Assembly (NCBI GenBank): GCA_000004985.1
Contig: GG738846.1
From: Naegleria gruberi
Lineage: Eukaryota
Length of the DNA stretch: 64,000 bases
Reading direction: 5' to 3' (one strand)
The notes below the pieces were generated by a model. That model was not told where the DNA came from and ran no database searches. It was given only the letters and a program-made list of their open reading frames with translations. Below are positions 35,101 to 60,062 of this stretch, piece by piece. Position numbers and translations under genes: made by a program. Positions within the stretch are counted from its first letter, which is position 1. Every line of letters begins with the position of its first letter.

Positions 35101-36018
35101 TGAAACAAATTTTGAATCTTCTCTCGGTTTGCCATAGTGACATGTGTGATAAAACATGAGTAAATGATCTGGAATTTCTTCTTCAATTTCACAGAGTGGA
35201 TTGACAAAGTCATTAATTTCCTCTTCAAAGAGAGGATTCGAATAATTTATCCACACTCGCTCATTTTCACTATCATTCTTATAGGAAGAACTTTCCAATC
35301 GACTCACTTGATTCTTATCTATCAGAATATCCTTCAACGTCAGCAGTGAATTGTTATTATTATTATTATTATTTGTGGCCAACTTTGAACTACTATTTCT
35401 TTCATTATCATCATCATCATTTGCAACAATACCAAAATCATGAACATCATTCGATAGTGTTGAATTAGTGGAAGATTCGGTTTTTTGTTCAGTGGAATTC
35501 AGCTCAAATTCAAAGTCATCACTATCCAAATCAATTCTCCTCTGCACATAGTCATGTTCCTCATCGAGGTCCTTTCTAAATCTCACTAGAAAGATGGCAC
35601 ATGCTCCCGAAAAATCCCTCTTCATTAATTTACACTGTTCATGATGAAGTTTGGATGGTAAAATTTGATGTGAAATGTGTTGCTTCTTATTGTAGGCTCT
35701 ATTTCTATTGTAGCCGTCAATTGTATTCAACATGAGAGAATCTGATGAACTATCGAATGTAAAGGAGGAGGAAAAAGTCGATCGATTACTTGTACCAACA
35801 CCACTCAAAACACTACTACTCGTATTTTGATCATTCGATGATGAAGAGAGGGTATTATCCTGACATTCGTCGTTATGCATTGAGTCATCAAAATTATTTT
35901 CTTCGCAAATTGATAATGTCGATGATACTGATGTTGAAATAATATCATGTGATGATGATAGGGCGCTACTACAAATAATGATCGTATTGTTGTTTAGACT
36001 ATTGATAGTATCGGTCAT
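32194..36018 (-). CDS. RGS-domain protein (~1274 aa) with possible upstream DUF547-like module
   Basis: Start moved to ATG 36016-36018 (MTDTINS). RGS signature FEEVLRNTNYRSYLRAFSEIECSTENIEFYDHVEKYK...KMYDKFLVSDSPSEVNVN...FDTYSRF aligns to the RGS4 core. Upstream FFINLHNLMLAHAF resembles the DUF547 core motif. N-terminal poly-Asn. Confidence 0.65.
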   Translation of the reverse strand: MTDTINSLNNNTIIICSSALSSSHDIISTSVSSTLSICEENNFDDSMHNDECQDNTLSSSSNDQNTSSSVLSGVGTSNRSTFSSSFTFDSSSDSLMLNTIDGYNRNRAYNKKQHISHQILPSKLHHEQCKLMKRDFSGACAIFLVRFRKDLDEEHDYVQRRIDLDSDDFEFELNSTEQKTESSTNSTLSNDVHDFGIVANDDDDNERNSSSKLATNNNNNNNNSLLTLKDILIDKNQVSRLESSSYKNDSENERVWINYSNPLFEEEINDFVNPLCEIEEEIPDHLLMFYHTCHYGKPREDSKFVSHLDSLTPADSWTEVINPLSLSGLCRTQTAQRELQQFMKHKITKLKDPLSTTSTFSLQKKAEKRKSSRASGTLKRMSIKHGNQPVSTNPITATLTSKEWQESVLEEEFKINVNLETEFEEFCNPLFEHETHNYLLPDGLKYSDMWKLVNEMKSECPPSVNKIIYTRSNWLELEENNFKQKLNKILSIGTHQGHARTSSSTTRSEFERRRPETRRYTQLNQEPERRDTIVEETNVIHIEKIKLTVDGESIFNYLKKKAQGYLTDTDIVELLSFILDTQRKNVNGCRDISNNLVLLSPVPYNAYEYLEFSPNTIYRYVDNDNPVFYNGQILNVIPEKKKASLLSEGELISNLFHKGSVPLEAINAISIPQDSAFLLDAPTYTIKLLIILENLMAIIQKEYFLVSEQAIDYYSFKQSENYKLTIRYTSMLRNFDPIKLDRNQKKSFFINLHNLMLAHAFCEKKYIAIEEEYEKFYNEPNYLIGRYKLSMSDIMNYILREQQLPEWKFYLREYQLNFLEKQYSYDSFSSQFDPRIHFIISDGRKSSPLPQAIDQLTMERIIESSTKRYINENFACTESSIELPALFHQYKEDFSPVNGSIFGVLNFILKHLRKSNQAPFFELLKKSNITETQLDYYANLPVNNLQNFPILAFQVIYSPVDFSSNCLMFEQFVGNDTSKPISFEEVLRNTNYRSYLRAFSEIECSTENIEFYDHVEKYKTITDMEARWKFAQKMYDKFLVSDSPSEVNVNKRLISTAARQIFRTKGEDETFVKLPLDLFDRLNKEVEMVLFDTYSRFTNTEAYQNLVMSSRRKTAANASMASGSVGASFLLSNKSKFTESIFDLINSSSLTTPNSAMSNTNLDSDLSPFGTSSSPTSSSTETSPRPPFERKMSKIGLLAQVFERNEQTDGQSNNLQTQQIKPAAVSPRLQSLMEVFSNGNADSNDLISRRRLSSASTDSLMSTSSNVSTTSSKH

Positions 36019-36275
36019 TGCAATTTTCTTGTTTGTTTTTGTTACAAGACGACGACGACGATGATTCTGAAGTGCAAGAGTCAGCAATCAAAAGAAGGGC
36101 GGATTTTAAAATCGTTTCACACCTGTGTCGCTGATTCTATTTTTTTTTGATATGACTGTTCGTTATCAAAAGTTGTGTTTGTAAATCAGGTACAAAGCTA
36201 CTTGACTGTTCCGTTAAAAGTACGTGACGATTGATTGAAATCAGTGATAATCAAGATTTAATTCAATTATTTTCA

Positions 36276-38183
36276 TTAATTTCTGTAATAAAACGATCCT
36301 CTGTTTGCTACTTGTGTTGCATTTGCAGCTGAATCAGCAGCAGCTTGTTTTTCTCTATTATATTTTCGTTTCAAGTAGGCGATAACAACTACGGCAATTA
36401 CAAGACAAGTGACAAAAGCAAGCAATATTGAGGCTGCGCCAACTCTAAAGTGGAAAGGAATAATTTGGCTCTCATCAGAAGGATTGCTTTCTTCTGGAAC
36501 TACCTCAGATTGTTCAACATGCAATATTTCACTACCATGCAATGTGAGTCCAATCTTTTTTAGATGTGCAACATTGGCTACACTTGTGTAAATTGAAAAT
36601 GACCAAACACCAGTGGCAGTTTCATTCCAGAACTGAACAGATGTGAATGTTTGATCCTCAATATCACTAGAGTGGTCATTTCTTCTACCTCTGCCCATCA
36701 TACTAATAGTTCCAGCTGGGGAACGAAGAGCAAAATAAACACTACCTCTAGATGGCACTGAAACAGTGAGACTGATAACAGCTGATTCTACTTTCATTTT
36801 CTTTTTAACTTCAAAGAGAACAATGGTTGGACTGGTGCTACTCTCGGAAAGTTTGAGTCCCTCTGAACCCAATTCAAGATCTGGTCCAAATGATTCAATG
36901 AGATATGGAGAGGAAATTAATGACCAACTCATTGCTGCTTGAACAGCTGCATAAGCATCAATTCTACCAAATCCATAATGAATGTTGTGATAGAGGCCGG
37001 CTCCATTCTTAATCCATTCTGAATGAGTGAGGTCAGTTCTTTTTGCTGTTGCAACAAGAATGTGTTGAACATCTCTCCATGTTAAATCTCTTCTTGCCTG
37101 CAATATGAGTGCCAAAACACCAGCTGCGAGAGGGCATGCAGAGCTAGTACCTCCAAATGAATCATAGCAATCCCCACTGGTGTATCCATTACTTCCTGTT
37201 CTATCAATGGTGACAATCTTACTTGTGAAAGAATAACCACCATTGTAATAGTTATTTGATGGAGCATTAATCAATGTGCTTGTACCAGATTCACTATAGT
37301 CACTTCTCTTACCACGCCAATCAGTGGCAGCAACGCAAATAGTGTAGGGACTATTGGCCAATTCATCCCAATCAGAAGAGTCTCCATACTTGGCACCATT
37401 ACCACTTGCCCAGACATAGATATTTCCAAGACCATTTCTTCCCTTTTGAATACCATTTACCAATGCCATAATAGAGAGTGGATATCTTTCAACGGTTACA
37501 CCATCATCAGAAGGTCCATAACTATTACTATAAATATCAATTCTATCATTGAAATGAGAAAGAGCTTCAGCAACAACTGAATCAGAATAGGCATCACCTA
37601 AGGCACGAATTGAGGCAACATTGGATTCAAAAGCAGCTCCAACACCACACTTGTGATTATTGGATCGGCCACAACAAACACCAGCACAAGAAGTACCATG
37701 ATTATCACCACTACCTCCTGGAGCTCCATACTCCGAAGGAGTTCCATAAGAACTCACATCCTTACTCAAATCTTCTTGAAAACCACATTCCAGATCAGGA
37801 TGATCATACTGCACACCATCATCAACAATTGCCAATGTTATATTGTATCCAGCTAAACGATATTTCTCCCAAACAGGCCAAATATTTACATCATTTCCAG
37901 GTGAACCAGAATCTTGATCTCCAAAACCAACCGATTGTGATTGCCCATTATTCTTCAAGTGCCATTGCTTTGGGTAGAGTGGGTCTTGTCCAATTATTTC
38001 CGAAACTGATACATTATGTTGATGAGAGAGTAAATAAAATTGTGAACATTCTGATAATGGTTTTCCACTGACCATTGATGTGGGTGATACGACAAGTAAT
38101 AGCATCACCATCATCATGATTAATAAATATGTTGTTATCATCATCACTCGCTTGATATTATTATTGTTCATCATATTTATCAT
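36276..38183 (-). CDS. kexin/furin-like proprotein convertase (subtilase S8 + P domain, C-terminal TM)
   Basis: Signal peptide. Catalytic Asp (AIVDDGV), His (HGTSCAG), oxyanion Asn (SGNGA), Ser (GTSSACP). Following ~150 aa is P-domain-like. C-terminal TM LLAFVTCLVIAVVVIAYL plus basic tail. Confidence 0.85.
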   Translation of the reverse strand: MINMMNNNNIKRVMMITTYLLIMMMVMLLLVVSPTSMVSGKPLSECSQFYLLSHQHNVSVSEIIGQDPLYPKQWHLKNNGQSQSVGFGDQDSGSPGNDVNIWPVWEKYRLAGYNITLAIVDDGVQYDHPDLECGFQEDLSKDVSSYGTPSEYGAPGGSGDNHGTSCAGVCCGRSNNHKCGVGAAFESNVASIRALGDAYSDSVVAEALSHFNDRIDIYSNSYGPSDDGVTVERYPLSIMALVNGIQKGRNGLGNIYVWASGNGAKYGDSSDWDELANSPYTICVAATDWRGKRSDYSESGTSTLINAPSNNYYNGGYSFTSKIVTIDRTGSNGYTSGDCYDSFGGTSSACPLAAGVLALILQARRDLTWRDVQHILVATAKRTDLTHSEWIKNGAGLYHNIHYGFGRIDAYAAVQAAMSWSLISSPYLIESFGPDLELGSEGLKLSESSTSPTIVLFEVKKKMKVESAVISLTVSVPSRGSVYFALRSPAGTISMMGRGRRNDHSSDIEDQTFTSVQFWNETATGVWSFSIYTSVANVAHLKKIGLTLHGSEILHVEQSEVVPEESNPSDESQIIPFHFRVGAASILLAFVTCLVIAVVVIAYLKRKYNREKQAAADSAANATQVANRGSFYYRN

Positions 38184-46643: not shown

Positions 46644-49600
46644 TTAAACCCATGTATTAAATGAATTATTGATTGTTCCATACGAAAGATCATCAAGATC
46701 AGCAAAGCCTTCTGTTTCTGTTGGATTTTCAGAAGAGCTTGGTTCTGAAGAAATCTTTTCGAATAAATCAGCAATTGTTCTTTCCCTGTCAGCATTAGTT
46801 TCATTGTAATAAACAAATTTACCAAACTTGTTCTTTCTTCTGTATCTTCTCCACAACCAGGCAATGACACCAACTGCAAAGAAAGCACCAATGAGTCCAA
46901 CCAAAAACAATGGAATTCCCAAGGCAATAGCAAGAACATCCAATGGCTCTGTTCTAATATTGGCAAGCAATGGAGTTGTCTTTTCAGCAACATCATACAA
47001 AGCAAATGAAGTGAGCGAATCAATTTGTGTTGTTGTAAGATTTTTACAGTTAAAAGCTTGACCAACAGACATTGTGTAATTAGTAAAATCATTCAATGTT
47101 GTCTTGTATGTAGCATCGCAAACTGTTCCCATAACATCGTGAACCAATTTAACAGTGTATTTTTGATCAGCATAGGTTAATCTGAATTCATAGGTTTCTC
47201 CAAGATCATACGTGCAAGGATCTGAAATTTCTGTATCATTGACATGAATTCTACGACCAGTTGCATCATAGCTTAATGATATAAAAAGATGATCAACCTT
47301 AGTGAACCAAACTTCAAACAAATTACCAGAAGTAAATTTGCTTGGAAGGATAATCTTGAAACTAATGATTTTGGAAATATCAAACTTCTTTGAAGATGAT
47401 ACATATTGTCTCAAAACTGGCATTTCAGAACATAATGAAGAATTAATAGTTGGTTTGAAAACCATTGCACTGCCATCTCTACTTTTAGGTAAATCAATCT
47501 TTGTAATGAGAGGAATACCAGCAGCTTGTGGTAACGCAGCAACAGTTTCAACATCTACACTAGTGGTACTAGTTGAGAAAATGCTGGAGGCGCTTTCTTC
47601 TTGAACAGATGGACTGACATATCTGAATCTTGTTTGAGTGGTTGAACTATAAACTCCACTCTCAATGGAAAGTTGAAGATCCAAAAGTACAGTTTCAATA
47701 TTGAGTTGAGGCATCTTGAATTTAATGCTTGATGAGGACACTTTTTGTGCATCAACATTAACATCAATGGATTCATCCTTATTTGATAATTTAACAAAAG
47801 CTGTATGTTCTGGAACGAAAACATCATTGATAACAATGTCATTACCAATATAACCCAAAACTGGACTCACATTATTGATACGATTGGAATAAACTGTGAA
47901 TTGGTTACCAGTATAGGGAACTTCAAGGAGAGGTTCTGCTGATGAAGATTTAAAGTCAACAATTTCAACCTTTGCATTCACTTGGAATGAATTCAAATCA
48001 GCTAATTGAGATGGCAAATTCTTCATTTCCTTAGTATTGACTTGATAAACACCATTGGTTGATGTCTTTTGAATGGAAAGTCTTTGAGTAAATACATTAT
48101 CAACACTGAAAATTAAATAAATTCCCAAAGTTGGTTTAAACGAAACATCAAGATTTCCTTCAAATGTAATTGTTGTACCACCTGAAACTGGTAAATAAAG
48201 CTTTGAGAATTTCTTAATATCAACACTGTATACAGGTGTTGTTTCAGCAACGAATGAGAAGGAAGATTCTGTGGAAGCAATCATTTTAGAAACACCTTGG
48301 AATGGATCCACTGTTGAAATACGTGTTAGCTCAACTGAAATGGATGTTGAATCTTCAGTGTTTGTCAATGTAATCTTATTGTTTTGAGTATCGATAATCA
48401 AATTTTCGACATTGGAAACTGAAAAGTCACCATCAGTATCAAGAGAAATAAAAGTAACATTTTCGGCTTTCAAACTTGGAATGACACCAACAATTTCAGT
48501 ACCATTTGTTCCTACATTGATCAAGAATTGTTCCTTAGTATCTGTATTTGCAACAGCCATAGAGAAAACAGTATTTTCAGTGAATGGAATGTTGACTGTT
48601 TCAATTGGGGTTGTGATGGTAGTTGATGTTAATGGAATAGTTGCCATGACATTCTTTCCATTATTATCTTCTACAATGAATGAATAGGTACTGGTATTGG
48701 TAATCGGATCAAATACAATATTACCTCCCAACAAGAACTTGGTATTAGTATTAATGGTTCCCAAATTATTAACAAGTTTTGCAGAATTAGAATCAAAGTC
48801 TAAAGAATAGAGCTGAGCTTGATTGGATATAGTTTCTGATGTAATGGCAAAGCTTTGATCTTCCTTATTGAATAATACTTTAGATTGTCCCAATGTTAAT
48901 CCACTTGTTGGTTGTTGATTTGTATCAAGAGTGGTTAACGTTTTCACAGTGGCATTGAATGAATTTTCTTGTAAACTAATTAAAGCAAAAACTAAACTAT
49001 CCTTTTGTTGCTTGTGAAGTGAAGGATCGAAACTCATAATCATAACTCCATTTGGACTCTTGGTAGTGGTAACCAATTCTTGAAGGGTTTGATTTTCAGG
49101 AATAACAACCTTATCCAACAATACTTGTGATTGCATGACAATAGTTTTACCACATTTAGCATCTACAAGAACCATTTCATAGACAAGTTGTTCATCAGTT
49201 ACAGTTGGACCAAAAGCTCTTGCAAATGAACCACTACATTGATCAGCAAATGTTGAGTATTGACATTTAGATCCTGTATGACCAGGATTACATTTACATG
49301 TATCAGGAGAAATACAAATACCATTACTACAGTTAACACTTCCAAAACAGAGTGGAAGTTCACATTGGAGTCCAACATAATTCTCACTGCATGAACAAGA
49401 ATTATTCGAAATGCAATTACCATTACCAGAACAAGCTAGTGAACTGTTTTGAGAAATTCCAAAACAGAAAATCTTTGGAGGTTCTTGACTTGGACTACTG
49501 TTATTATTATTGTTATTATTACTATTGGTATTGGAATTGTTTGTAGAATTATTGGAAGAGGAGGTATTTGTGGACTTGTAAGATTGAGTTATGGTTTGAA

Positions 49601-50741
49601 CAATGTTATTGATAACACTCATTTGAGATGTAATTGTTTGTTGGGTTGTATTACTTGTTAATAATTCAAAGAAAACGAGTTCACCAGTAAATGGATATGG
49701 ATTAGGAAGGTCATTGGTTCTACCAATCAAAATGTTATCAGAGTTTGGAATGGAAGATGTGTTATCTTGATAAACTACCTTACTATCCATGACAACTACC
49801 AAACCTGGATCAGTAAATTCAACTAAAAGTGATACTGGTTTGCTTTGCAATGAACTATTTGAATAGATAACCGTATTAGAACCAAGCAAAGAAAGACTAA
49901 CATTTTGAGAGTTCAAGAAGACTTTGAGACCAGTACCAATATCCAACAAGACTTGAGGATTGGAGGTTGTTGGTGTTGTGGATGGTTTGGCAACTAATGA
50001 AAGAACAAAGTTGTCAGTAAGTGGTGAAGCCAAATCCAATGAAACAAATGAATCACTGGAGAGCAATAAGGATGAGTTGGATGATGATGAGGTAGTGGTA
50101 CAGTTTTTAACAACTGCTAAACCAATCTTACAGTCACTTCCGTCCTTTGTAACAGACCAGGTGATATCTGGATTATTTGACGAATCTTGACTATTGGTGA
50201 TGCTTTGAACATTATTAATGACATTAACTAAAGTTTGATTATTGACATTATTGGTTAACAATTCGAAGAATGATAATTCACCGTTGAATGGATAAGTATT
50301 AAGTAAGTCATCAGATCTACCTATCAAGATGTTGTTAGAATTTGGAATTTGTGTTATGGCTGGATTTTGATATTTAGAATTTCCATCAACAAATACACTC
50401 AAACCTGGATCTGTGAATTGAACAACAAATGATGTGGCGTCAATATTATTTGGATTGGTTGTTGGATAAGTGCAAATAACTGTTTCAACACCATCGATAA
50501 CCAAAATGACATGTGGATATCTAATAATTACTTTGAGACCAGTACCGACATCCAATAACACTTGAGGATCAGAAGTGGTTGTTGAAGGTTTAGCAACAAC
50601 TGAAACAATAAAGCTATCAGTGAGAGGAGCGCTCAAATTCAAAGAAATGAATGACTCATTTGATAACATCAATGTAGAATTAGAAGCTGTTGCACAATTT
50701 TTAACAACTGCTTGTCCAATCTTACAGTCAGAACCATCCTT
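46644..50741 (-). CDS. giant type-I membrane adhesin-like protein, C-terminal part (LamG-like repeats, EGF-like Cys module, TM, cytoplasmic tail ending -TWV)
   Basis: Same gene as 50745..55650. Contains LamG/ConA-like modules (..ILIGRSDDLLN.YPFNGELSFFEL..), an EGF-like cluster CSGNGNCISNNSCSCSENYVGLQCELPLC...CKCNPGHTGSKC, ~900 aa of beta-rich sequence, a TM helix LAIALGIPLFLVGLIGAFFAVGVIAWLW, then RRYRRK stop-transfer. Confidence 0.7.
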   Translation of the reverse strand, partial: KDGSDCKIGQAVVKNCATASNSTLMLSNESFISLNLSAPLTDSFIVSVVAKPSTTTSDPQVLLDVGTGLKVIIRYPHVILVIDGVETVICTYPTTNPNNIDATSFVVQFTDPGLSVFVDGNSKYQNPAITQIPNSNNILIGRSDDLLNTYPFNGELSFFELLTNNVNNQTLVNVINNVQSITNSQDSSNNPDITWSVTKDGSDCKIGLAVVKNCTTTSSSSNSSLLLSSDSFVSLDLASPLTDNFVLSLVAKPSTTPTTSNPQVLLDIGTGLKVFLNSQNVSLSLLGSNTVIYSNSSLQSKPVSLLVEFTDPGLVVVMDSKVVYQDNTSSIPNSDNILIGRTNDLPNPYPFTGELVFFELLTSNTTQQTITSQMSVINNIVQTITQSYKSTNTSSSNNSTNNSNTNSNNNNNNNSSPSQEPPKIFCFGISQNSSLACSGNGNCISNNSCSCSENYVGLQCELPLCFGSVNCSNGICISPDTCKCNPGHTGSKCQYSTFADQCSGSFARAFGPTVTDEQLVYEMVLVDAKCGKTIVMQSQVLLDKVVIPENQTLQELVTTTKSPNGVMIMSFDPSLHKQQKDSLVFALISLQENSFNATVKTLTTLDTNQQPTSGLTLGQSKVLFNKEDQSFAITSETISNQAQLYSLDFDSNSAKLVNNLGTINTNTKFLLGGNIVFDPITNTSTYSFIVEDNNGKNVMATIPLTSTTITTPIETVNIPFTENTVFSMAVANTDTKEQFLINVGTNGTEIVGVIPSLKAENVTFISLDTDGDFSVSNVENLIIDTQNNKITLTNTEDSTSISVELTRISTVDPFQGVSKMIASTESSFSFVAETTPVYSVDIKKFSKLYLPVSGGTTITFEGNLDVSFKPTLGIYLIFSVDNVFTQRLSIQKTSTNGVYQVNTKEMKNLPSQLADLNSFQVNAKVEIVDFKSSSAEPLLEVPYTGNQFTVYSNRINNVSPVLGYIGNDIVINDVFVPEHTAFVKLSNKDESIDVNVDAQKVSSSSIKFKMPQLNIETVLLDLQLSIESGVYSSTTQTRFRYVSPSVQEESASSIFSTSTTSVDVETVAALPQAAGIPLITKIDLPKSRDGSAMVFKPTINSSLCSEMPVLRQYVSSSKKFDISKIISFKIILPSKFTSGNLFEVWFTKVDHLFISLSYDATGRRIHVNDTEISDPCTYDLGETYEFRLTYADQKYTVKLVHDVMGTVCDATYKTTLNDFTNYTMSVGQAFNCKNLTTTQIDSLTSFALYDVAEKTTPLLANIRTEPLDVLAIALGIPLFLVGLIGAFFAVGVIAWLWRRYRRKNKFGKFVYYNETNADRERTIADLFEKISSEPSSSENPTETEGFADLDDLSYGTINNSFNTWV

Positions 50742-52800
50742 TAGTAATTGCCCAAACAACCTCTGTGTTGGTAGTATTTGACACCGGTGCTGGATTGCTT
50801 GGTGATGTTGAAGAGACAACATTTGCAACTGTGCTAATTACATTGGATAAAGTTTGATTGTTAACATTGTTAGTCAATAGTTCAAAGAATGATAATTCAC
50901 CATTGAAAGGATAAGCATTCAGTAAATCATCAGATCTTCCAATGAGAATATTGTCAGAATTTGGAATTTGTGAAATGACTGGGTTTTGATATTTAGAATT
51001 TCCATCAACAAATACACTCAAACCTGGGTCGGAGAATTTAACAACGAATGAGTTTGCATCAGGACTGCTTGGATTTGAGGTTGTTGGATAAGTGTAAATA
51101 ATTGTTTCAACACCATCTAGAACCAAAATAACATGTGGATATCTAATAATTACTTTGAGACCAGTACCGACATCCAATAACACTTGAGGATCAGAAGTGG
51201 TTGTTGAAGGTTTAGCAACAACTGAAACAATAAAGCTATCAGTGAGTGGAGCGCTCAAATTCAAAGAAATGAATGACTCATTTGATAACATCAATGTAGA
51301 ATTAGAACCTGTGGCACAATTTTTGACCACTGCTTGTCCAATCTTGCAGTCAGAACCATCCTTTGTAATAGCCCAAACAACCTCTGTGTTGGTAGTATTT
51401 GACACTGGTGCTGGATTGCTTGGTGATGTTGAAGAGACAACATTTGCAACTGTGCTAATTACATTGGATAAAGTTTGATTGTTAACATTGTTAGTCAATA
51501 GTTCAAAGAATGATAATTCACCATTGAAAGGATAAGCATTCAGTAAATCATCAGATCTTCCAATGAGAATATTGTCAGAATTTGGAATTTGTGANNNNNN
51601 NNNNNNNNNNNNNNNNNNNNNNNNNNNNNNNNNNNNNNNNNNNNNNNNNNNNNNNNNNNATGGATAACCATTAAGCAAGTCATCAGATCTACCAATGAGA
51701 ATACTATCAGAATTTGGAATTTGTGAAATGGCTGGATTTTGATATTTTGAATTTCCATCAACAAATAATGACAATCCAGGGTCTGTGAATTGAACAACGA
51801 AAGAGGTTGCAGCAAGATTTCTTGGATTTGAGGTTGTTGGATAAGTGTAAATAACAGTTTCCACGCCATTAACAATCAAAATAACATCAGGATATCTGAG
51901 AATGACTTTGAGATCACCAACATCCAATAAAACTTGGGTTACAGGACTAGTTGATAAAGGCTTTGCCACAACTGAAACGATAAAACTGTCAGTGAGTGGT
52001 GCACTTAAATTCAAGGAAATGAATGAATCATTGGAGAGTAACAAAGTAGAATTGGAAGCTGTTGCACAATTCTTTACCACTGCTTGTCCAATTTTACAAT
52101 CAGAACCATCTTTGGTGATTGCCCAAATAATTTCTGTATTTGTAACGTTTGATGAAGGAGTGTTAGTGGTTGTGTTTGTAGCAGTTGGGCTTGGAGTGTT
52201 GGTTGTTGAAGAAACTACACTTGATACAGTGTTGATAATGCTTGACAATGTTTGATTTGTTACATTATTTGTCAACAATTCAAAGAATGACAATTCACCA
52301 ATAAATGGATAAGCATGCAGTAAATCGTCAGATCTTCCAATCAAAATATTGTTAGAATTTGGAATTTGTGCAATGGTAGAGTTTTGATATCCCACTTGAT
52401 TATTCACGAGAACGGATAAACCAGGATCTGTGAATTGAACAATTACTGGCATTGGAGTAATAGAGTTTGGATCAGAAGGAAGAGTATATACTACATATTC
52501 CACACCATTAACAATCAAAATAACATATGGGAATCTTACAACAACCTTAAGGTCATTACCGATATCCAACAAAACTTGAGTTACAGGATTTGAAGATAAA
52601 GGCTTTACAACAACTGAAACAATAAAGCTATCAGTGAGTGGTTCATCCAAGCTCAAAGAAACAAATGATCCATTAGAAAGCAACAAGGTAGAGTTTGATG
52701 AGGTGGTACAATTTTGAACAATTGCCTGTCCAATCTTACAATTATTACCTTCTTTAGTAATAGACCACAAAACATCTGTTGGTTGTGTTGAAGCATCACT
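49650..52800 (-). repeat. coding tandem repeat array, ~620-bp unit (LamG-like module), adjacent copies up to ~99% identical
   Basis: TATTACTTTGAGACCAGTACCGACATCCAATAACACTTGAGGATCAGAAGTGGTTGTTGAAGGTTTAGCAACAACTGAAACAATAAAGCTATCAGTGAG occurs at ~50530 and ~51150, with diverged copies at ~49930, ~51900 and ~52520. Confidence 0.85.
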
Positions 52801-55650
52801 TATTGAAGGATGATATTGACTAGCAATAGCAGAAAATATAGCACTCAAATTATTGGAAGCACTTGGCAATACTGAGAATGATAACAAGTCACCACTGAAT
52901 GGATAAATAGGAGATGAAGGACTTCTTCCCACTAGGATATTACCAACATTTGAGGTGTCGAAAATGTCAGTGTTGTAAACAAGATTGGAACTCAAGAAAA
53001 CTTTCAAATTTGTTCCATTCACAACCAGTGCAATAGAGAGTAGAGAATCACCATTGGAATGGGATCCAATGAGGATTTTATCATTACTGCTTGTAATCAA
53101 ATAAATGTTCGGAAGTTGAGTGACAATCATGGTATTGAAAAGTGAGACAACTACTTGTGTAATGTTATTGTAACCAGAATCTGGAAGAACTGTCACTAAA
53201 ACAGTGTATGAATTAGGCATTAAAGTGACAGAATAATTCAAGAATGAATTATTTGAGAGGTGTACAGTAGCATTGTCAACCATTTGACAATTAACAATCT
53301 TGACCTCAGATCCAATAACACAAGAACCATTCAATTTTTCAATAACCCATTCAATTGTCTTGTTGGATGGAAGGGCAATTGGTTCGGTAACACATGACTT
53401 GATGGTATATTGAGGTTCTTCTCTTTCAAGTATTAAATCACGAAGATTGAACTGTGAAGGTTGAAGCTCTGGTGCATTAGCTCCATAAAACATCATGTTA
53501 TACAAGAGATCGGAGGCTTGTTGTTCAATAACTGATTGTTCATCACAGAATTGCATTGGTTCAGTAGAAAATAATTCTGGTTCAGACATCCACCAATCAT
53601 ATTGCTCCTCCTCATCAATAGTCTCAGAGGTAGTTGTGGTAGAGTTTTGCACAGTCACACAATCATGAACATGATATTCAGCAAACAATGTTTCACCAGT
53701 TAAAATATCTTGTGTGAGTAAGCTAGTAGTCAATTGGTTAGCATCAACACCCAACATGAGACCATACAATAAATCATCAACTTCCTTTGTTTCTTTGGCT
53801 GCTTGGTCACATAAAACATATTGTTGCTCAGTAGCAGCGTCATCAGAAAGAGTCTCAAAAAGATAAACTCCTGAAATGGTCCAATCGAATTGAGGTGAGT
53901 CTAAAGTTTCTTCTACACTGGTTGTTGAGGTAGAGTTGGTTGTGTTGTTACCTTGGTTGATTGTGCATTCTTTGAGAATATATTGAATTTGTTCGATACC
54001 ACTAATTGAGGAAGTATCAACAAGATCAGTGAACAAACTTTGATAGTCAGAATTACCTAATTGCATTCTCAAAAGTGCATCATAGACTTGTTGATTATCC
54101 AATGATTCTTGATCACAAAATTCTTTCACCAAACTATCGGTACTATCACCATCATCCTCAAAAAGGAATGGACCGGTAATAAGCCAATTAAATGAATCAC
54201 CATCATCCTCTTGTGAAGCAACTTCTAATGGAGCAATTTGAGTGGTGTTTGTAACATTACTGACTATTGTTGGAACAGTGCAATCTTTGAGAACATATTC
54301 AATCTGTTCTACTGTACTAGTAATTGTGGAAATATCAACAAGTTCTGTAAACATGCTTTGATAGTCAGAATTACCCAATTGCATTCTCAAAAGTGAGTCG
54401 GCAAACTGTTGGGCATCCAAAGAAGCTTGATCACAAAATTCCTTCACCAAACCACCACCATTGCTACTACTACTCGTAGCATCATCGGCAGCGTCGAACA
54501 GATATGGACCAGTAATAAACCAATCAAATGAATCACCAACTTCTTGTGGGGAGGCAATGTCTAATGTTACAATTGGAGTGGTAGTATTGGTTGAATTGTT
54601 GACAATTGGTGTTGGTGGAACAGTACAATCTTTGAGAACATATTGAATTTGTCCAATGCCACTCAAAATTGAAGAAAGGTCAACAAGCTCAGTAAAAGAA
54701 CCCAAGTCAGAGCCTCCTAGAGCAGTTCTCAACAGTGAATCAGTAAGTTGTTGATCATCCAAAGAAGCCTGATCACAAAACTCTTTCACCTCAAAATCGC
54801 CACCACTGCTACTACTACTAGTAGCATCATCAGAGCCAAACAAATATGGTTCAATCAACCAAGCCAAAGAGCCATCATCTTGTTGAGTTGTTGCTGTTTC
54901 TGTTGTTGCTGAAACCATACCATCAACGCTAGTGGAAGCATAGCTTGTAGAGTTTGTTGCGTTTGAAGTTACATTAACAATTGGAACAGAACAATCAATA
55001 AGGGTATACTCTGGTTCTAAACCACTTATAATATCATCCAAATTAACATAACTCAACAAGTCAGATTCATAGGAGGAAGAGAATAACATTTTAAGGTACA
55101 TGTCTTCTTGTTGTTGAGCCTCCAAAGAAGCTTGATTACAGAAGGTAGTTGCTGCCTTTTCGAACAAATATCCATCTGCAATCATCCAACTGAAATCACT
55201 GGTAGAGGTAGTATCAATGGTGGTTGTACTTAAACTATCAGTGGTAGTAGTACCAGTAGTACTAGTATTAGATGTTGTTGTTGTTGTTACATTTAAAGTA
55301 GTAGTATTAGTTGTGATATTGGCAGGAATAGCAACTACTTCACATGCTGAATCCAACTTCAAGTAGTAAAATGATGTAGAGTCTATTAAGGATTGATAAT
55401 AATCAATATCTGTCTCATCCATTTGATTAACACAAGCCGTTCCATCAGAATTAACACTCATTCCTTCATCATCAAGAGCACTCCCAAGAATTAATTGTGT
55501 TAAAAAATCATCACCATCATCAGTGCCAAAAATTGAAGAAAGACTTTGTGCGTTTACCATGTTATTTTCATTAGGGGAGCCTGAAAACATTAATCCAGCT
55601 GCCCACATGACAACAAACGTTGTGAAGAGGAGAAGAAGCGATGTTTTCAT
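50745..55650 (-). CDS. giant adhesin-like protein, N-terminal part (signal peptide, 4-5 DCTVP modules, LamG-like tandem repeats). Start probably ATG 55648-55650; an upstream in-frame ATG exists at 55794
   Basis: MKTSLLLLFTTFVVMWAAGLMFSG is a canonical signal peptide. About 90-aa modules each ending ..EYVLKDCTVP. Then LamG-like ~205-aa repeats identical in register to those in 46644..50741. The frames differ by +1 at ~50742. Confidence 0.7.
51595..51659. other. assembly gap (65 N) inside the tandem-repeat array
   Basis: Run of N. Flanking sequence on both sides belongs to the same repeat family, so copy number here is unresolved. Confidence 0.95.
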
Positions 55651-55940
55651 CGACTTGCTACTTCCTCCACGACGTTGAATACTACTGCTACACGACAATC
55701 GAGCTTGATTGTTCATGATGTGATGGTATTCGTGTGTTTTTTTCTTTGCTGAAGAGGCAAGATGTTGCGTGCTGTAAGCATAATCGTAAAACATGTCCTT
55801 AATAAGAACAAGGTAATCCTCAATATTTTCCGCATAGTTAATCCAAGATGGAACGTTCCAAATACGCTTGTGTCTAGAGTGTTATCTTGTCAATTAAGGC
55901 CTCATCCCTTTGTTTGTGATGATCATCAATTATTATTTGT

Positions 55941-58900
55941 TTATTCACAACTTGGAGAGGTGGTGTACGAAAGTACATTCATTTCCTTTTGGAATTTAAA
56001 GGTTTCTCGCCACTTGACAAATTCATCTTTGAGAATTAGTCTTTGGAAAATATCGAGATTATTCTTGACCACTTCATATTGAATTTCCTTAAATACAGAA
56101 TATGGCAAGAGACCATCTGGATTGAGTGTTAAATTTGTCATGGCATTGGCAAAATCAGTATAGCATCGAGCAGGCAAGTTGATTGGGTATGGTGATGTTG
56201 GTGCAAAATATGTAGCATGTAAATAAGTTACATAGTCCAAGTCCAAGGTTCCAGTTTGTCTCACTTTTTCCAAATCCTCATAGAGATTAAAGTTTTCAAT
56301 TGAGAATTCGTTATTGGAATAATTTCGGTGAAGCCATCTAAAATTAATATCTGTCAAATATTCTTCCCATTGAGCTTCCAATCTCTCAAAATCATCCAAT
56401 GGTTGATTATCACCAACACAAGTATCTCTGAGCTTTCTAATGTATGTTGCAATATCAACTATCATAACATTACCACCAACAAGTAACAAGCTACATAAGA
56501 AGAAGGCCACAAGACACAATCTATTAACAACCAATGAATTCCAAATGAACAGATCAAGAATGAGTACAATGCAGGTAACGAACATTGCTGCCAACGTGAA
56601 AATATCAATTCTGAGATAGAAAGGATCATCAAACAAGAAATAGTGTCTGAAACCCTTGTCCTTGATTGTCCTAATGTTCAGTATCATGTCAACCACAAAT
56701 ACAAGCATTACCACAACACTCAAAAAGCCAAACTGTGAAGCCAACGACAATAGGGATGCATCAAACTGTAAAGACCACTCGAATCTTTTGAATCGTTGAA
56801 TAACAACACCATAGAGAATTCCATAGTAAACTCCATACCAAATTCCTGCAAGAACCAAGCTCAGTGTAACAGAAACCATGAAGGAAATCTCTGGTCTCGA
56901 CACAATTCTGTAAAGTTTCATTCTACTTGTGTGAGATTTGTTTTCTCGTTTGATTGGAGAGAACTCTCTCAATTGATACAAGTTTCTCAATAAGAAGAAT
57001 CTAATAGTCACCACAATATAGCTCGAACACAACAGTGAAATGCAATAGTCTGGAACTGGTATCAGCGCAAATAAGGACATGCCAACATTCTTGAATACAC
57101 TCATCAAGATTGGTTCTAAAAAGAATAGACAAGTGAATATAATGCACATTGGAGCAATAAAAGGAACAAACAATCTTCTTCTCATTGCCTTATTATTATC
57201 AATCATGATACTGTAATTTACAACAAGTCCAATATAGAAAACCAAACATAAAATAATGACAAGGAATAACATGGCATCCTTATAGGTGAGATCCCAGTAT
57301 TTGGTTGGATTGTTATAGTGGAAAACACCCAAGTATTGATTATAAGAGCTGTAGCAGCTTGGACGAGCAATATCTTGGTAAACCAGCTCGGAAACTGAAA
57401 TATTTCTATTGTGTTCATTTGTAAATAGCCTAAACATTGTATGATCAAATTCAGTAAGAGGAAGCGATAGAGATGATGCTTGGAAACTACTATATCCCTC
57501 ACTGAATGTGGTTGAAATACGTGGAATTTCGAAAAGGTAACTATGATAGTCCTTTACAGATATAGTATCAAAAATTGAACAATTAATGGTACCATTAGTC
57601 CATAAATTGACAATGGAGAAGGACTCATTGAAGACAGAGTAAATTTCTTTAAAAACAGCAGCCTTGACCTTGTTGAAGGTATCCTCACTCTTGAGAGTTG
57701 CAACACGAACCGATCTTGGAATTGTCTTGAGCTTTGTTGGAATATTTGTTGTGAATATTTGTGCATAGTCAGATGTTTTCATATTATCAAGCTCAGATAT
57801 AGACCTTGGATCTAGGGTTTCATTCCTATCTAAAAAGTAAATATTATTCTTAATTGCCAATAGCATTGTGTCAACTTCTTCTGGTGTTACAAGAATCAAA
57901 TCACAAGAGCTGTACCAGTTTCTATTGAGGAATGAGTCGTGGCCCATAATAGGTTCATAATTTGTAATACTCAAAGAGTCACTCGTTGAGGTTTTGGTAT
58001 CAATATACTGATATTCTCTATTGCCATCCTTAAGGGTAATACCAACAACAGATTTAGATGCTCGAATAGTAAGATTTCTGACAGCCTGATCACAACAAGT
58101 GCAAATACGTGCAGTTTTCAAAAGTTGGAAGGTAAAGTTTGAAGTTTTAAATTTAGGAACTATTCCAACCAAATTATGATAGTAAAACACAACCACTTGA
58201 TTACTCATCTTGATAATGTTTGTCGATCCATCAATTTGGTACAAATCAGAATTGTCATTAATAAATTCATTCATACTGGTTGTATTGAGCAAGTTGACAT
58301 TTCCAATTTCAAATGTGGATTCATCGAAAGAACCAGTCTGATCATACAGAGGAACTAGTTTGGAAAAATCTCTTAAAATTGTATTGGATTGGAAAAGATT
58401 TTTGTAGGAAGAAACATAGAGGCCTACATTAACATCAACTCTAGAGGTTTGTGTTCCTTCTTGAACACTTCTTTTCTGTTGGGCAACATGTCTGGTATTC
58501 TGTGAAGAAAGGTTATTAATGATGGTTGAAGGAGCTCTTGCATCGATACCATTGTTAACTTGCTTTTCATACATGCAACTCAGATAAGCATTCAATGGAA
58601 TTGAGCATTTACCATTCAGTGGGGAGAAGATTGACGATTTGGTGTCAATAATAGGAATAGGCTTATTTTGAACTGGTTGGAGTGGGTGTGAATAATAGAT
58701 TGAGGACAACATGCCATAATTCATCGAACAAATAGACAAATCCATCAATTTGCTCATACAGAAATCAATACAGACCCTTCTCTGTTCACTACTACATGCA
58801 CAATATGAATACTTTGGGCATGGGAAAATGTCATAATCGACAGTGTCTCCACAAGTAATTTCAGATGGTAAATCAGTACAAGTGCCTGAGGTTGTATTAC

Positions 58901-60062
58901 AATAGCTCGAGTAGCAATCAGTGTTGTCTACACATGATTCGCCATTATAGTTACCAAATAATCTCAAACATTTTGAGTTTTCACATCTGACTGGTTGATT
59001 TCCAGGCCACTTTCCAGTGTCAAGATTTTGCTTTAGTGAAATACCACTACTTTCCAGACCTCCTATACAATCTGTATAAATAGAGCAATTGCTAGTGGTA
59101 TAATTCTTACAGATCAGAATTGTATTAGAGTATTCAACTGGGACAGGATTCAAATCGTCACTACATTTGCCAAAGATTGGTTTAGAATTAGGATTATAAT
59201 AATCTGGGAATGAGAAACTTGGCAGACAAACACCATTACAAGTAGAAGCAGCTGGGCATTTCTTGTAGACTGTAATAGGATTACCCTCTTCATCCTCAAT
59301 GTTGGCAAGTCCACAACTTTCATACAGGACAACATCAACTCTTCTCAAACATTTCTTTGTTGCAGCTAGGACAGATGGTAGATGGCAATAACTTGAACTA
59401 TCACAATTATCATAACTATTGGTAGTATAATTAACCAATGCCTTATCAAGTAAACTTTCAAAATCTGAATCTGGAGCGAATGGACAAGTGCTTCCTTCAG
59501 GAAGAACAGGATTTTCCTGTAAATAGCTACACTTTCCAGCATGACAATTCACAAAAGGATTAGTGACATGTCCATAACAATTCATACGATCAGTACAAGT
59601 GTCATTAATCATTCTTGTTTGAACATAGGTACACTTGAGAGTAGTTGGAGAGCAAGCCAAGTAAGGCAGTACACAATTTGTTTCATCAGCCCATGGTTGG
59701 GATGGATCATAGAAAGGATCACCATAAGGAATTACACAACTCTTCGTATCAACAGTTTCTAACAAGAATTCGTCCAATGGCTTACAAGAGAAAGCTCCAC
59801 TAATCGAATCTGTCATTCTAACATAACCAAACGGACACATGTTACCAAAGAGATAGAAATCATTGTACACATTTGTTGATATGTTTACATTATAGAAGGG
59901 AATGATGGAAGTTGTGGCCACTGAACAAACATCTAATTGTGCAAGAGTAGTACCTGAATTGCAAATGATGAATAGTAATATAAATAATACCACTAAAAGA
60001 AGAGCACGATGATTACTCTTCAATGATGATGAAGAAGAAGATGATGAAACATCCATTTTCAT
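55941..60062 (-). CDS. receptor-like 7TM-RGS protein with ~880-aa Cys-rich extracellular N-terminal domain
   Basis: Signal peptide (MKMDVSSSSSSSSLKSNHRALLLVVLFILLFIICNSG). Long Cys-rich ectodomain. Seven hydrophobic helices between ~aa 905 and 1180. C-terminal RGS core FSIENFNLYEDLEKVRQ...YLHATYFAPTSPYPINLP...FKEIQYEVVKNNLDIFQRL. Genuine ATG 60060-60062. Confidence 0.65.
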   Translation of the reverse strand: MKMDVSSSSSSSSLKSNHRALLLVVLFILLFIICNSGTTLAQLDVCSVATTSIIPFYNVNISTNVYNDFYLFGNMCPFGYVRMTDSISGAFSCKPLDEFLLETVDTKSCVIPYGDPFYDPSQPWADETNCVLPYLACSPTTLKCTYVQTRMINDTCTDRMNCYGHVTNPFVNCHAGKCSYLQENPVLPEGSTCPFAPDSDFESLLDKALVNYTTNSYDNCDSSSYCHLPSVLAATKKCLRRVDVVLYESCGLANIEDEEGNPITVYKKCPAASTCNGVCLPSFSFPDYYNPNSKPIFGKCSDDLNPVPVEYSNTILICKNYTTSNCSIYTDCIGGLESSGISLKQNLDTGKWPGNQPVRCENSKCLRLFGNYNGESCVDNTDCYSSYCNTTSGTCTDLPSEITCGDTVDYDIFPCPKYSYCACSSEQRRVCIDFCMSKLMDLSICSMNYGMLSSIYYSHPLQPVQNKPIPIIDTKSSIFSPLNGKCSIPLNAYLSCMYEKQVNNGIDARAPSTIINNLSSQNTRHVAQQKRSVQEGTQTSRVDVNVGLYVSSYKNLFQSNTILRDFSKLVPLYDQTGSFDESTFEIGNVNLLNTTSMNEFINDNSDLYQIDGSTNIIKMSNQVVVFYYHNLVGIVPKFKTSNFTFQLLKTARICTCCDQAVRNLTIRASKSVVGITLKDGNREYQYIDTKTSTSDSLSITNYEPIMGHDSFLNRNWYSSCDLILVTPEEVDTMLLAIKNNIYFLDRNETLDPRSISELDNMKTSDYAQIFTTNIPTKLKTIPRSVRVATLKSEDTFNKVKAAVFKEIYSVFNESFSIVNLWTNGTINCSIFDTISVKDYHSYLFEIPRISTTFSEGYSSFQASSLSLPLTEFDHTMFRLFTNEHNRNISVSELVYQDIARPSCYSSYNQYLGVFHYNNPTKYWDLTYKDAMLFLVIILCLVFYIGLVVNYSIMIDNNKAMRRRLFVPFIAPMCIIFTCLFFLEPILMSVFKNVGMSLFALIPVPDYCISLLCSSYIVVTIRFFLLRNLYQLREFSPIKRENKSHTSRMKLYRIVSRPEISFMVSVTLSLVLAGIWYGVYYGILYGVVIQRFKRFEWSLQFDASLLSLASQFGFLSVVVMLVFVVDMILNIRTIKDKGFRHYFLFDDPFYLRIDIFTLAAMFVTCIVLILDLFIWNSLVVNRLCLVAFFLCSLLLVGGNVMIVDIATYIRKLRDTCVGDNQPLDDFERLEAQWEEYLTDINFRWLHRNYSNNEFSIENFNLYEDLEKVRQTGTLDLDYVTYLHATYFAPTSPYPINLPARCYTDFANAMTNLTLNPDGLLPYSVFKEIQYEVVKNNLDIFQRLILKDEFVKWRETFKFQKEMNVLSYTTSPSCE

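What the first reader, a model, noticed from the sequence alone, without database searches (positions are those of the whole stretch)
55941..60062. 7TM-RGS receptor-like protein with an unusually large Cys-rich ectodomain
One 1373-aa polypeptide fuses a signal peptide, an ~880-aa Cys-rich extracellular region, seven predicted TM helices and a C-terminal RGS domain (SIENFNLYEDLEKV ... YPINLP ... DIFQRL). GPCR-RGS fusions of the AtRGS1 type are sparsely described. I do not recognise one with such a large ligand-binding-like ectodomain. It would act as a ligand-regulated GAP for a G-alpha subunit.
Basis: inference. Interest (0 to 1): 0.65.

Follow-up and report, generated by a model that had tools for sequence, protein, structure and literature searches.

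The report
Naegleria 7TM-RGS receptor, orphan ectodomain
This is a real Naegleria gruberi gene for a membrane receptor that joins a large extracellular region, a GPCR-like seven-helix bundle and an intracellular G-protein "off-switch" (RGS) domain. Receptors of this kind, with large ectodomains, have already been described in Naegleria fowleri, so only this ectodomain's lack of known relatives is new.

Summary
The 1373-codon ORF is real. It lies on the minus strand at 55941-60062 and is identical to Naegleria gruberi NAEGRDRAFT_77883, so the organism is not a dictyostelid.

- a signal peptide;
- an ectodomain of about 880 aa;
- a divergent but genuine C-terminal RGS box.

The RGS box alone falls just under the Pfam threshold (19.6-23.2 vs 23.9 bits). 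A profile built from its relatives hits 35 solved RGS domains (best E = 1e-13). The Gα-contact residues are retained (E1256, N1257, N1295, D1337, R1341).

Only the N-terminal half of the ectodomain is Cys-rich. The membrane-proximal half is a separate α/β domain. Neither half matches any Pfam family or PDB sequence, and there is no GAIN/GPS.

The whole architecture is collinear in N. lovaniensis and Willaertia magna. About 100 further cluster representatives share only the 7TM-RGS core.

The novelty claim fails. Bosch et al. 2022 described 28 N. fowleri 7TM-RGS proteins, some 1215-2459 aa long with complex ectodomains, and showed GAP activity for their RGS domains.

Verdict: a new member of a known kind. 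It is most likely a ligand- or adhesion-regulated receptor-GAP. Interest is modest.

The parts
55941..60062 (-). Complete single-exon CDS (1373 codons plus stop), equal to N. gruberi NAEGRDRAFT_77883
   Evidence: ORF listing. 100% identity to P0001, whose model starts at Met3. Collinear full-length relatives in N. lovaniensis and Willaertia magna.
59940..60062 (-). Predicted signal peptide, aa 1-41 (h-region aa 20-34, 'TLA|QLD' site)
   Evidence: Kyte-Doolittle peak of 2.59 at aa 20-38. The sequence was read directly. No dedicated signal-peptide predictor was available.
58575..59927 (-). Cys-rich N-terminal ectodomain region, aa 46-496 (about 37 Cys, about 36 invariant in relatives)
   Evidence: Cys positions and invariant Cys columns in A2/A4. 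No Pfam hit at E<=10 and no PDB sequence relative. The AlphaFold model has low confidence (pLDDT 53, β-hairpin-rich) and its Foldseek matches are non-significant. A weak internal repeat links aa 141-195 to aa 362-417 (hhalign E=0.006).
58206..58574 (-). Variable, Cys-free linker, aa 497-619 (poorly conserved, predicted disordered)
   Evidence: Gappy, low-identity columns in A2. pLDDT is below 50 at model-2 residues 480-605.
57306..58205 (-). Membrane-proximal α/β ectodomain, aa 620-919. Invariant motifs: CTCC (654-657), MGHxSFxxRNW (706-716) and the stalk C-YSSYNxYLGVFHY (903-916).
   Evidence: Invariant columns in A2/A5. Much of it is modelled at pLDDT above 80, as mixed helices and β-hairpins. 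No Pfam hit. The PDB profile search gave only a spurious CENP-Q match. No GAIN/GPS structure appears among the fold hits.
56424..57305 (-). Seven-transmembrane GPCR-fold domain, aa 920-1213. TM cores: 931-950, 967-984, 999-1021, 1057-1084, 1101-1127, 1151-1175, 1180-1201.
55983..56393 (-). RGS box, aa 1224-1360, cytosolic and about 10 residues after TM7
   Evidence: Pfam PF00615 gives 19.6-23.2 bits against a gathering score of 23.9. The profile of 29 relatives hits 35 PDB RGS chains, with RGS10 at E=1.2e-13. 27 of 29 relatives hit Pfam RGS. Foldseek finds RGS17, RGS9 and RGS1 at TM-score 0.55-0.75. Model pLDDT is 90-95. Contact residues S1254, E1256, N1257, N1295, D1337 and R1341 are retained.

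Best explanation
The gene encodes a Naegleria gruberi member of the heterolobosean seven-transmembrane RGS (7TM-RGS) receptor family.

Shown or predicted here:
- A signal peptide directs an ectodomain of about 880 aa to the cell surface.
- The ectodomain has a disulfide-rich N-terminal half, a variable linker and an orphan α/β juxtamembrane domain.
- A GPCR-fold seven-helix bundle follows.
- An RGS box sits in the cytosol about 10 residues after TM7. It keeps the residues that RGS proteins use to bind the Gα switch regions.

Inferred:
- The RGS box accelerates GTP hydrolysis on one or more of Naegleria's many Gα subunits. Some of these are self-activating in N. fowleri.
- The receptor therefore holds G signalling off by default.
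- Binding of an extracellular ligand or surface to the ectodomain changes that GAP activity. This could work through a conformational change passed through the helix bundle to its strongly conserved cytoplasmic face, or through removal of the receptor from the membrane as for plant AtRGS1. Either route would release Gα signalling.
For: - Identity and gene model.
- Topology: seven family-conserved hydrophobic segments, with K/R-rich ICL1, ICL2 and ICL3.
- Model: AlphaFold pLDDT 80.9 and pTM 0.77 for aa 601-1373.
- RGS: the family profile hits 35 solved RGS domains at E from 1e-13 to 1e-7, and nothing else at E<=0.001. 27 of 29 relatives hit Pfam RGS. Foldseek TM-scores to RGS17, RGS9 and RGS1 are 0.55-0.75.
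- GAP residues: E1256/N1257, N1295, D1337 and R1341 align with RGS4 E87/N88, N128, D163 and R167. The RGS4 numbering comes from my recollection of the RGS4-Giα1 structure.
- Fusion is real: it is collinear in N. lovaniensis (38% identity over the full length) and Willaertia magna.
- Conservation pattern: across 41 relatives the cytoplasmic halves of the helices are more conserved than the extracellular halves (0.405 vs 0.270, p=8e-10), and ICL3 is the most conserved loop. This fits a shared intracellular partner and diverse ligands.
- Literature: RGS domains of N. fowleri 7TM-RGS proteins are selective GAPs for Nf Gα2, 3, 5 and 7, and Gα5 and Gα7 are self-activating (PMC9283941). The AtRGS1 mechanism is described in PMC3386157.
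Against: - The RGS box alone scores below the Pfam gathering threshold.
- It departs from the family consensus at three otherwise conserved positions: P1293 for Glu, I1338 for Thr (the RGS4 Ser164 position) and K1345 for Thr. GAP potency or specificity could therefore be altered.
- No ligand, expression data or partner Gα is known for this protein.
- The strongly conserved cytoplasmic face would equally fit a GEF-type GPCR function.
Confidence: 0.6

Rival explanations
1. Dual-function receptor. The seven-helix bundle is a true GPCR that activates slow-exchanging Gα subunits as a GEF through its conserved cytoplasmic face. The tethered RGS box then terminates or sharpens that same signal as a built-in kinetic scaffold. 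It would not act as a constitutive brake.
For: - The most conserved residues of the bundle lie where GPCRs contact G proteins: the TM3 end 'RFxxLRNLY' at the DRY position, and ICL3/TM6 'FxDPFxxRxD'.
- N. fowleri has both slow- and fast-exchanging Gα subunits, and both kinds engage 7TM-RGS proteins (PMC9283941).
Against: - There is no sequence similarity to any Pfam GPCR family.
- GEF activity has not been reported for any 7TM-RGS protein, including AtRGS1, in the papers read here.
- The conserved face could equally dock the protein's own RGS box, or hold Gα in place for GAP action.
Confidence: 0.2
2. The RGS box is a non-catalytic Gα-binding or scaffold module (a pseudo-GAP). The protein works mainly as an adhesion or recognition receptor whose output is not GTPase acceleration.
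For: - The Pfam score is below threshold.
- Three substitutions fall at family-conserved RGS positions: P1293, I1338 and K1345.
- Close paralogues P0003 and P0005 have clearly degenerate RGS boxes that lack the Asp and Arg of the DxxxR motif. Loss of GAP function therefore does occur in this subfamily.
Against: - The target itself keeps all of E1256, N1257, N1295, D1337 and R1341.
- These residues are invariant or nearly invariant across the 29-41 relatives aligned in A1 and A3.
- The RGS fold is modelled at pLDDT 90-95.
Confidence: 0.15
3. Gene-model artefact. Two adjacent genes, one for a secreted Cys-rich protein and one for a 7TM-RGS protein, only appear fused.
For: - The variable, predicted-disordered linker at aa 497-619 separates conserved blocks.
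- No transcript data were available.
Against: - There is one stop-free frame of 1373 codons.
- The same collinear arrangement is found in N. lovaniensis, in two Willaertia magna genes and in metagenomic relatives.
- The juxtamembrane domain runs directly into TM1, with an invariant stalk motif between them.
Confidence: 0.02

Closest known systems
Naegleria fowleri 7TM RGS proteins (28 genes; Nf 7TM RGS1-4 studied by Bosch, Jeck & Siderovski, J Biol Chem 2022, PMC9283941)
   Same: - Same genus.
- Same architecture: a large extracellular N-terminus, seven TM helices and an RGS box at the extreme C-terminus.
- Similar overall size (1215-2459 aa against 1373 aa).
- Their RGS boxes are selective GAPs for Nf Gα subunits through the canonical switch-I interface.
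   Different: - The described N. fowleri members carry EGF-like repeats, lectin domains and GPS motifs. This protein has none detectable. Its ectodomain is instead a Pfam-orphan Cys-rich region plus an orphan α/β juxtamembrane domain.
- Direct sequence homology to Nf 7TM RGS1-4 could not be tested.
Arabidopsis AtRGS1 (prototype plant 7TM-RGS)
   Same: - A 7TM domain is fused to a C-terminal cytosolic RGS box.
- It is proposed to act as a receptor-GAP that restrains a self-activating Gα until an extracellular cue relieves it (PMC3386157; PMC9283941).
   Different: - As I recall, AtRGS1 is 459 aa and has essentially no ectodomain. This protein has about 880 extracellular residues.
- Homology between the two 7TM domains was not tested, so the fusions may be independent.
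Adhesion GPCRs (class B2)
   Same: - A very large, modular, disulfide-rich ectodomain precedes a GPCR-fold bundle.
- A conserved short β-hairpin or stalk lies immediately before TM1.
   Different: - No GAIN domain or GPS 'HL|T' motif is present.
- The juxtamembrane domain is α/β, not a GAIN β-sandwich.
- The intracellular output is an RGS (GAP) domain.
- There is no specific affinity for class B over other GPCR classes.
Canonical soluble RGS proteins (R4/RZ/R12 families: RGS4, RGS10, RGS17)
   Same: - The helical RGS-box fold is shared.
- The Gα-contact residues E-N, N and D...R are conserved.
   Different: - Sequence identity is about 14-18%.
- The box has a longer α5-α6 insert.
- It is tethered to a membrane receptor rather than soluble.

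Membership tests
RGS domain superfamily (Pfam PF00615) | Operational threshold, not a biological feature: the protein's own sequence reaches the Pfam gathering score of 23.9 bits | tested here: not met
   The whole protein scores 19.6 bits (E=0.0013). A 773-aa fragment scores 21.0 bits. The isolated domain scores 23.2 bits (E=1e-4). The shortfall is 0.7-4.3 bits.
RGS domain superfamily (Pfam PF00615) | Statistically significant homology to bona fide RGS boxes | tested here: met
   A profile of the target plus 28 relatives hits 35 PDB sequences at E<=0.001, and all of them are RGS proteins. RGS10 gives 1.2e-13, RGS7 gives 2.4e-12 and RGS4 gives 7.4e-10. 27 of 29 relatives match PF00615.
RGS domain superfamily (Pfam PF00615) | All-helical RGS-box fold | tested here: met
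   The model region aa 1224-1360 is helical with pLDDT 90-95. Foldseek matches RGS17 (6am3), RGS9 (1fqk) and RGS1 (2bv1) with target TM-scores of 0.55-0.75.
RGS domain superfamily (Pfam PF00615) | Gα switch-contact and GAP residues (RGS4 E87, N88, N128, D163, R167) | tested here: met
   E1256, N1257, N1295, D1337 and R1341 are all present. The RGS4 Ser164 position is Ile here and Thr in the family.
RGS domain superfamily (Pfam PF00615) | GTPase-accelerating activity on a Gα subunit | not testable with these tools
   This needs a biochemical assay. It has been shown for other Naegleria 7TM-RGS boxes (PMC9283941).
7TM-RGS receptor class (AtRGS1 type / Naegleria 7TM RGS) | Seven TM helices followed by a C-terminal RGS box in one polypeptide | tested here: met
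   The arrangement is collinear in three heterolobosean species.
7TM-RGS receptor class (AtRGS1 type / Naegleria 7TM RGS) | N-out / C-in topology that places the RGS box in the cytosol | tested here: met
   This is a prediction only. It rests on the signal peptide and the Cys- and N-glycosylation-sequon-rich N-terminal region, the odd number of helices, and K/R-rich ICL1, ICL2 (9 of 32 residues) and ICL3.
7TM-RGS receptor class (AtRGS1 type / Naegleria 7TM RGS) | Sequence homology of the 7TM-RGS core to the characterised N. fowleri 7TM RGS1-4 or to AtRGS1 | not tested
Peptides encoded by the published primers matched none of the 116 relatives. The named relatives are Naegleria and Willaertia 'RGS domain-containing' or hypothetical proteins.
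GPCR fold | Seven-helix bundle superimposable on solved GPCRs | tested here: met
GPCR fold | Membership of a described GPCR sequence family (any Pfam 7TM family) | tested here: not met
   The 7TM region gives no Pfam hit even at E<=10. None of 41 relatives hits one either.
Adhesion-GPCR-like receptors | GAIN domain with a GPS autoproteolysis motif directly before TM1 | tested here: not met
   There is no GPS or GAIN Pfam hit. The sequence before TM1 is CYSSYNQYLGVFHY and has no C-x-C...HL|T. The modelled juxtamembrane domain is α/β. No GAIN structure appears among the fold hits shown.

The most novel reading that the evidence does not exclude
The Pfam-orphan ectodomain may be a new, heterolobosean-specific sensing module. 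It consists of a region with roughly 18 predicted disulfides and an α/β juxtamembrane domain with invariant CTCC, MGHxSFxxRNW and pre-TM1 'YNxYLGVFHY' motifs. In this reading, the invariant β-hairpin stalk just before TM1 works like the tethered agonist of adhesion GPCRs. It would couple ligand or mechanical input to the bundle and so switch the attached GAP. That would be convergent with GAIN/Stachel but unrelated in fold.
Probability: 0.1. Interest if true: 0.6.

Novelty: new member of a known kind. Interest (0 to 1): 0.3.

Why it matters
Naegleria has one of the largest G-protein toolkits known. One survey counted 229 RGS proteins in N. gruberi (PMC3971589), and a review cites about 44 Gα subunits (PMC8584482). 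7TM-RGS receptors are proposed to be its main way of sensing the outside world (PMC9283941).

This gene adds a subfamily that is conserved across Naegleria and Willaertia. Its ectodomain has no recognisable relatives and lacks the EGF, lectin and GPS modules reported so far.

The family-wide conservation of the cytoplasmic face gives concrete residues to mutate when asking how a seven-helix bundle controls an attached GAP. These include R1021/LRNLY and FxDPFxxRxD.

It does not change the current picture of G-protein signalling. It is a candidate for receptor-ligand studies, not a new principle.

Tried and rejected
1. Dictyostelid origin is rejected. The ORF is 100% identical to an N. gruberi protein.
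2. The word-indexed protein search found essentially only the query itself, or a handful of relatives, in all three attempts. The exhaustive HMMER search was needed to find the family.
3. Single-sequence phmmer against PDB found nothing for the whole protein or for the RGS region. Only the family profile worked.
4. GAIN/GPS, EGF and lectin content as in Nf 7TM RGS1-4 was not found.
5. Identification of the ectodomain failed.
   - Pfam gave zero hits at E<=10.
   - PDB profile searches gave only a compositional CENP-Q match.
   - The AlphaFold model of aa 36-640 was poor (pLDDT 53).
   - Its Foldseek matches (TNFR-type CRDs, mamba intestinal toxin, Entamoeba lectin) were non-significant, with E>=0.66.
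6. A fold search against AFDB was unavailable.
7. The look-up of encoding contigs had no record of the protein.
8. I tried to link the protein to Nf 7TM RGS1-4 through peptides encoded by the published primers. There were no matches among the 116 relatives.
9. Anantharaman et al. 2011 and Bradford et al. 2013 are not held in the library.
10. Paralogy with the neighbouring large ORFs in the window is rejected. The only similarity is a weak RGS-RGS match to ORF 32194-36087.


Full report
**1. The observation**

The window carries one uninterrupted ORF of 1373 codons on the minus strand, at 55941-60062 including the stop codon. GC content is about 35%. A stop-free frame of this length cannot arise by chance; my estimate is about 1e-44.

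The translation is 100% identical over its whole length to Naegleria gruberi NAEGRDRAFT_77883. NCBI calls it 'hypothetical protein' and UniRef calls it 'RGS domain-containing protein'. The public 1371-aa model simply starts at the third codon, Met3. The organism is therefore a heterolobosean amoeboflagellate, not a dictyostelid. About 1.1 kb of AT-rich intergenic DNA lies upstream, and no longer in-frame start is available.

**2. Anatomy**

*N-terminus.* It has the n/h/c layout of a signal peptide: basic residues, a hydrophobic core at aa 20-34 and 'TLA|QLD'.

*Ectodomain.* Between the signal peptide and the first membrane helix lie about 880 residues, but they are not uniform.
- 39 of the 56 cysteines fall in aa 34-496, while aa 500-900 contain only five.
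- In an alignment with the six closest relatives, about 36 cysteines of the N-terminal half are invariant.
- A gappy, variable linker follows at about aa 497-619.
- After the linker comes a well-conserved, Cys-poor block at aa 620-919. Its invariant motifs are CTCC (654-657), MGHxSFxxRNW (706-716) and YNxYLGVFHY (907-916), the last directly ahead of TM1.

*Membrane domain.* Hydropathy averaged over 41 relatives gives exactly seven hydrophobic segments: 931-950, 967-984, 999-1021, 1057-1084, 1101-1127, 1151-1175 and 1180-1201. The K/R-rich loops are those predicted to be cytoplasmic: ICL1 'KAMRRR', ICL2 with 9 K/R in 32 residues, and ICL3. This gives an N-out/C-in topology.

**3. Structure prediction**

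An AlphaFold2 model of aa 601-1373, built on a 41-sequence alignment, is confident (mean pLDDT 80.9, pTM 0.77). It shows:
- a mixed α/β juxtamembrane domain;
- a short β-hairpin formed by the stalk motif;
- seven long helices;
- after a roughly 10-residue low-confidence linker, an all-helical C-terminal domain with pLDDT 90-95.

Foldseek gives the same GPCR hits. It also finds RGS17, RGS9 and RGS1 with target-normalised TM-scores of 0.55-0.75.

The model of aa 36-640 is poor (pLDDT 53; β-hairpin-rich with a disordered linker). Its fold matches are not significant.

**4. The RGS domain**

On its own the sequence falls just short of Pfam's curated threshold for PF00615. It scores 19.6 bits as part of the whole protein and 23.2 bits as an isolated domain, against 23.9 bits. 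Single-sequence searches of the PDB find nothing.

It does not survive a proper test, for four reasons.
- An exhaustive HMMER scan of 1.84 billion cluster representatives finds 116 relatives.
- A profile of the C-terminal domain from 29 of them hits 35 distinct PDB sequences at E<=0.001. Every one is an RGS protein: RGS10 at 1.2e-13, RGS7 at 2.4e-12, RGS4 at 7.4e-10 and EhRGS-RhoGEF at 1.2e-8.
- 27 of the 29 relatives match Pfam RGS.
- The columns that are invariant or nearly invariant in the family are the RGS hallmark positions, and the target keeps them.

The hallmark positions map as follows.

| Motif in target | Target residues | RGS4 equivalent |
|---|---|---|
| 'SIEN' | S1254, E1256, N1257 | S85, E87, N88 |
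| 'INLP' | N1295 | N128 |
| 'LDIFQR' | D1337, R1341 | D163, R167 |

The RGS4 numbering is from my recollection of the RGS4-Giα1 complex.

The target departs from its own family consensus at three conserved positions: P1293 for Glu, I1338 for Thr and K1345 for Thr. This explains the low Pfam score. It also leaves open some change in potency or specificity.

**5. The family**

*Relatives sharing the whole architecture.*
- The best relative is N. lovaniensis C9374_004501 (1327 aa), 38% identical and collinear from the Cys-rich region to the RGS box.
- A second N. lovaniensis gene, two adjacent-numbered Willaertia magna genes and two metagenomic proteins share the same ectodomain.

*Relatives sharing only the core.*
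- About 100 further representatives, mostly 600-900 aa, share only the 7TM-RGS core. Their N-termini differ.
- All named ones are from Naegleria or Willaertia.

*Domain searches.*
- No Pfam family other than RGS is recurrently found in any of them.
- No Pfam 7TM family matches.

*The juxtamembrane stalk.*
- The target's stalk, 'CYSSYNxYLGVFHY', is shared by a subgroup (P0001-P0012).
- Other paralogues have a 'CxxCxxxxC' motif at that place.
- None shows a GPS 'HL|T' site.

*Conservation across the membrane.*
- Across the 41 aligned relatives, the cytoplasmic halves of all seven helices are more conserved than the extracellular halves. Mean top-residue frequency is 0.405 against 0.270 (Mann-Whitney p = 8e-10).
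- ICL3 is the most conserved loop, at 0.64.
- The near-invariant residues cluster at three sites: ICL1/TM2 (R963, P967, P971), the cytoplasmic end of TM3 (Y1015, R1021, L1025, N1027, Y1029) and ICL3/TM6 (I1133, G1137, F1144, D1146, P1147, R1151, D1153).
- This pattern is what one expects of receptors that share an intracellular partner but recognise different things outside.

**6. How it most likely works**

*Shown here.* The parts list, the predicted topology, the GPCR and RGS folds, and retention of the Gα-contact residues.

*From the literature.*
- N. fowleri encodes 28 7TM-RGS proteins.
- The isolated RGS boxes of three of them are selective GAPs for Nf Gα2, 3, 5 and 7, acting through the canonical switch-I interface.
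- Nf Gα5 and Gα7 exchange nucleotide faster than they hydrolyse GTP, so they are 'self-activating' (PMC9283941).
- In plants, AtRGS1 restrains a self-activating Gα until an extracellular cue relieves it (PMC3386157).

*Inferred.* This protein is a receptor-GAP. Its RGS box, held about 10 residues from the membrane, keeps one or more Gα subunits in the GDP state. Engagement of the ectodomain by a soluble ligand, prey surface or substrate modulates that activity, either allosterically through the bundle's conserved cytoplasmic face or by internalisation.

I put about 0.9 on '7TM-RGS protein', about 0.65 on 'active GAP' and about 0.5 on 'ligand-regulated'. This gives about 0.6 for the mechanism as a whole.

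*Rivals.*
- A GEF-plus-GAP dual receptor (0.2).
- A pseudo-GAP scaffold or adhesion receptor (0.15). Paralogues P0003 and P0005 have lost the DxxxR motif, so degeneration does occur in this clade.
- An annotation fusion artefact (0.02). This is contradicted by the single frame and by collinear orthologues.

**7. Comparison with what is known, and novelty**

That is incorrect.
- Bosch, Jeck and Siderovski (2022) describe complex extracellular N-termini in N. fowleri 7TM-RGS proteins, with EGF-like repeats, lectin domains and GPS motifs.
- Their Table S1 places the RGS boxes of Nf 7TM RGS1-4 at residues 1036-1215, 1262-1419, 1539-1678 and 2293-2459. Those ectodomains are therefore as large as this one or larger.
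- De Mendoza et al. (2014) had already noted 229 RGS proteins in N. gruberi and 7TM-RGS architectures in many lineages (PMC3971589).

What is specific to this gene is the content of its ectodomain. It has no detectable EGF, lectin, GAIN or GPS. Instead it has a disulfide-rich region and an α/β juxtamembrane domain that match nothing in Pfam or in PDB sequences. This content is conserved from Naegleria to Willaertia.

I therefore file it as a new member of a known kind, with a subfamily-specific orphan ectodomain.

**8. Verdict**

Interest is 0.3.

The most novel reading still open is that the orphan juxtamembrane domain and its invariant pre-TM1 hairpin form a GAIN/Stachel-like tethered regulator of a receptor-GAP. 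I give it a probability of about 0.1 and an interest of about 0.6 if true.

Noticed in passing
window 32194-36087 (-): A second RGS gene lies about 20 kb away. It is a 1297-aa ORF with Pfam DUF547 (E=1.4e-22) followed by a canonical RGS box (E=8e-15). It has no TM segments. Its RGS box is the only part of the window with any similarity to the target (blastp E=0.004).
   Followed up: partly
window 46644-55794 (-): Two large ORFs overlap by about 100 nt in different frames: 50728-55794 (1688 aa) and 46644-50828 (1394 aa). They probably form one giant surface protein of about 3000 aa, joined by an intron or a frameshift. Its features are an N-terminal hydrophobic anchor or signal, Ser/Thr-rich tandem repeats, teneurin-like EGF repeats and a single TM near the C-terminus. 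It starts only 147 nt downstream of the target's stop codon, on the same strand.
   Followed up: partly
window 51594-51659: A run of 65 N (an assembly gap) lies inside the repeat region of the 1688-aa ORF. It is translated as a run of X. The repeat copy number there is therefore uncertain.
   Followed up: no
window 24578-27400 (+): A 940-aa ORF combines a protein kinase domain with DUF4116 repeats and eight Sel1 repeats. This is an unusual multidomain signalling protein.
   Followed up: no
window 36276-38183 (-): A 635-aa subtilase / proprotein-convertase-like ORF (Peptidase_S8 plus P-domain) has an N-terminal hydrophobic segment and a C-terminal TM segment. It is a possible membrane-anchored processing protease encoded near several large surface proteins.
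   Followed up: no
relatives P0003 and P0005 (N. lovaniensis C9374_007781 and C9374_002925): These close paralogues of the target keep the 7TM core and the first RGS motifs. They have lost the Asp and Arg of the DxxxR Gα-contact motif ('ILPSIFMPL', 'IIPEIYLAL'). They are likely GAP-dead members of the subfamily.
   Followed up: partly
relatives P0006 and P0117 (Willaertia magna ABK040_005523 and ABK040_005533): These two proteins fall in one 90%-identity cluster and are encoded ten locus tags apart on the same contig. This points to a recent local duplication of the receptor in Willaertia.
   Followed up: no
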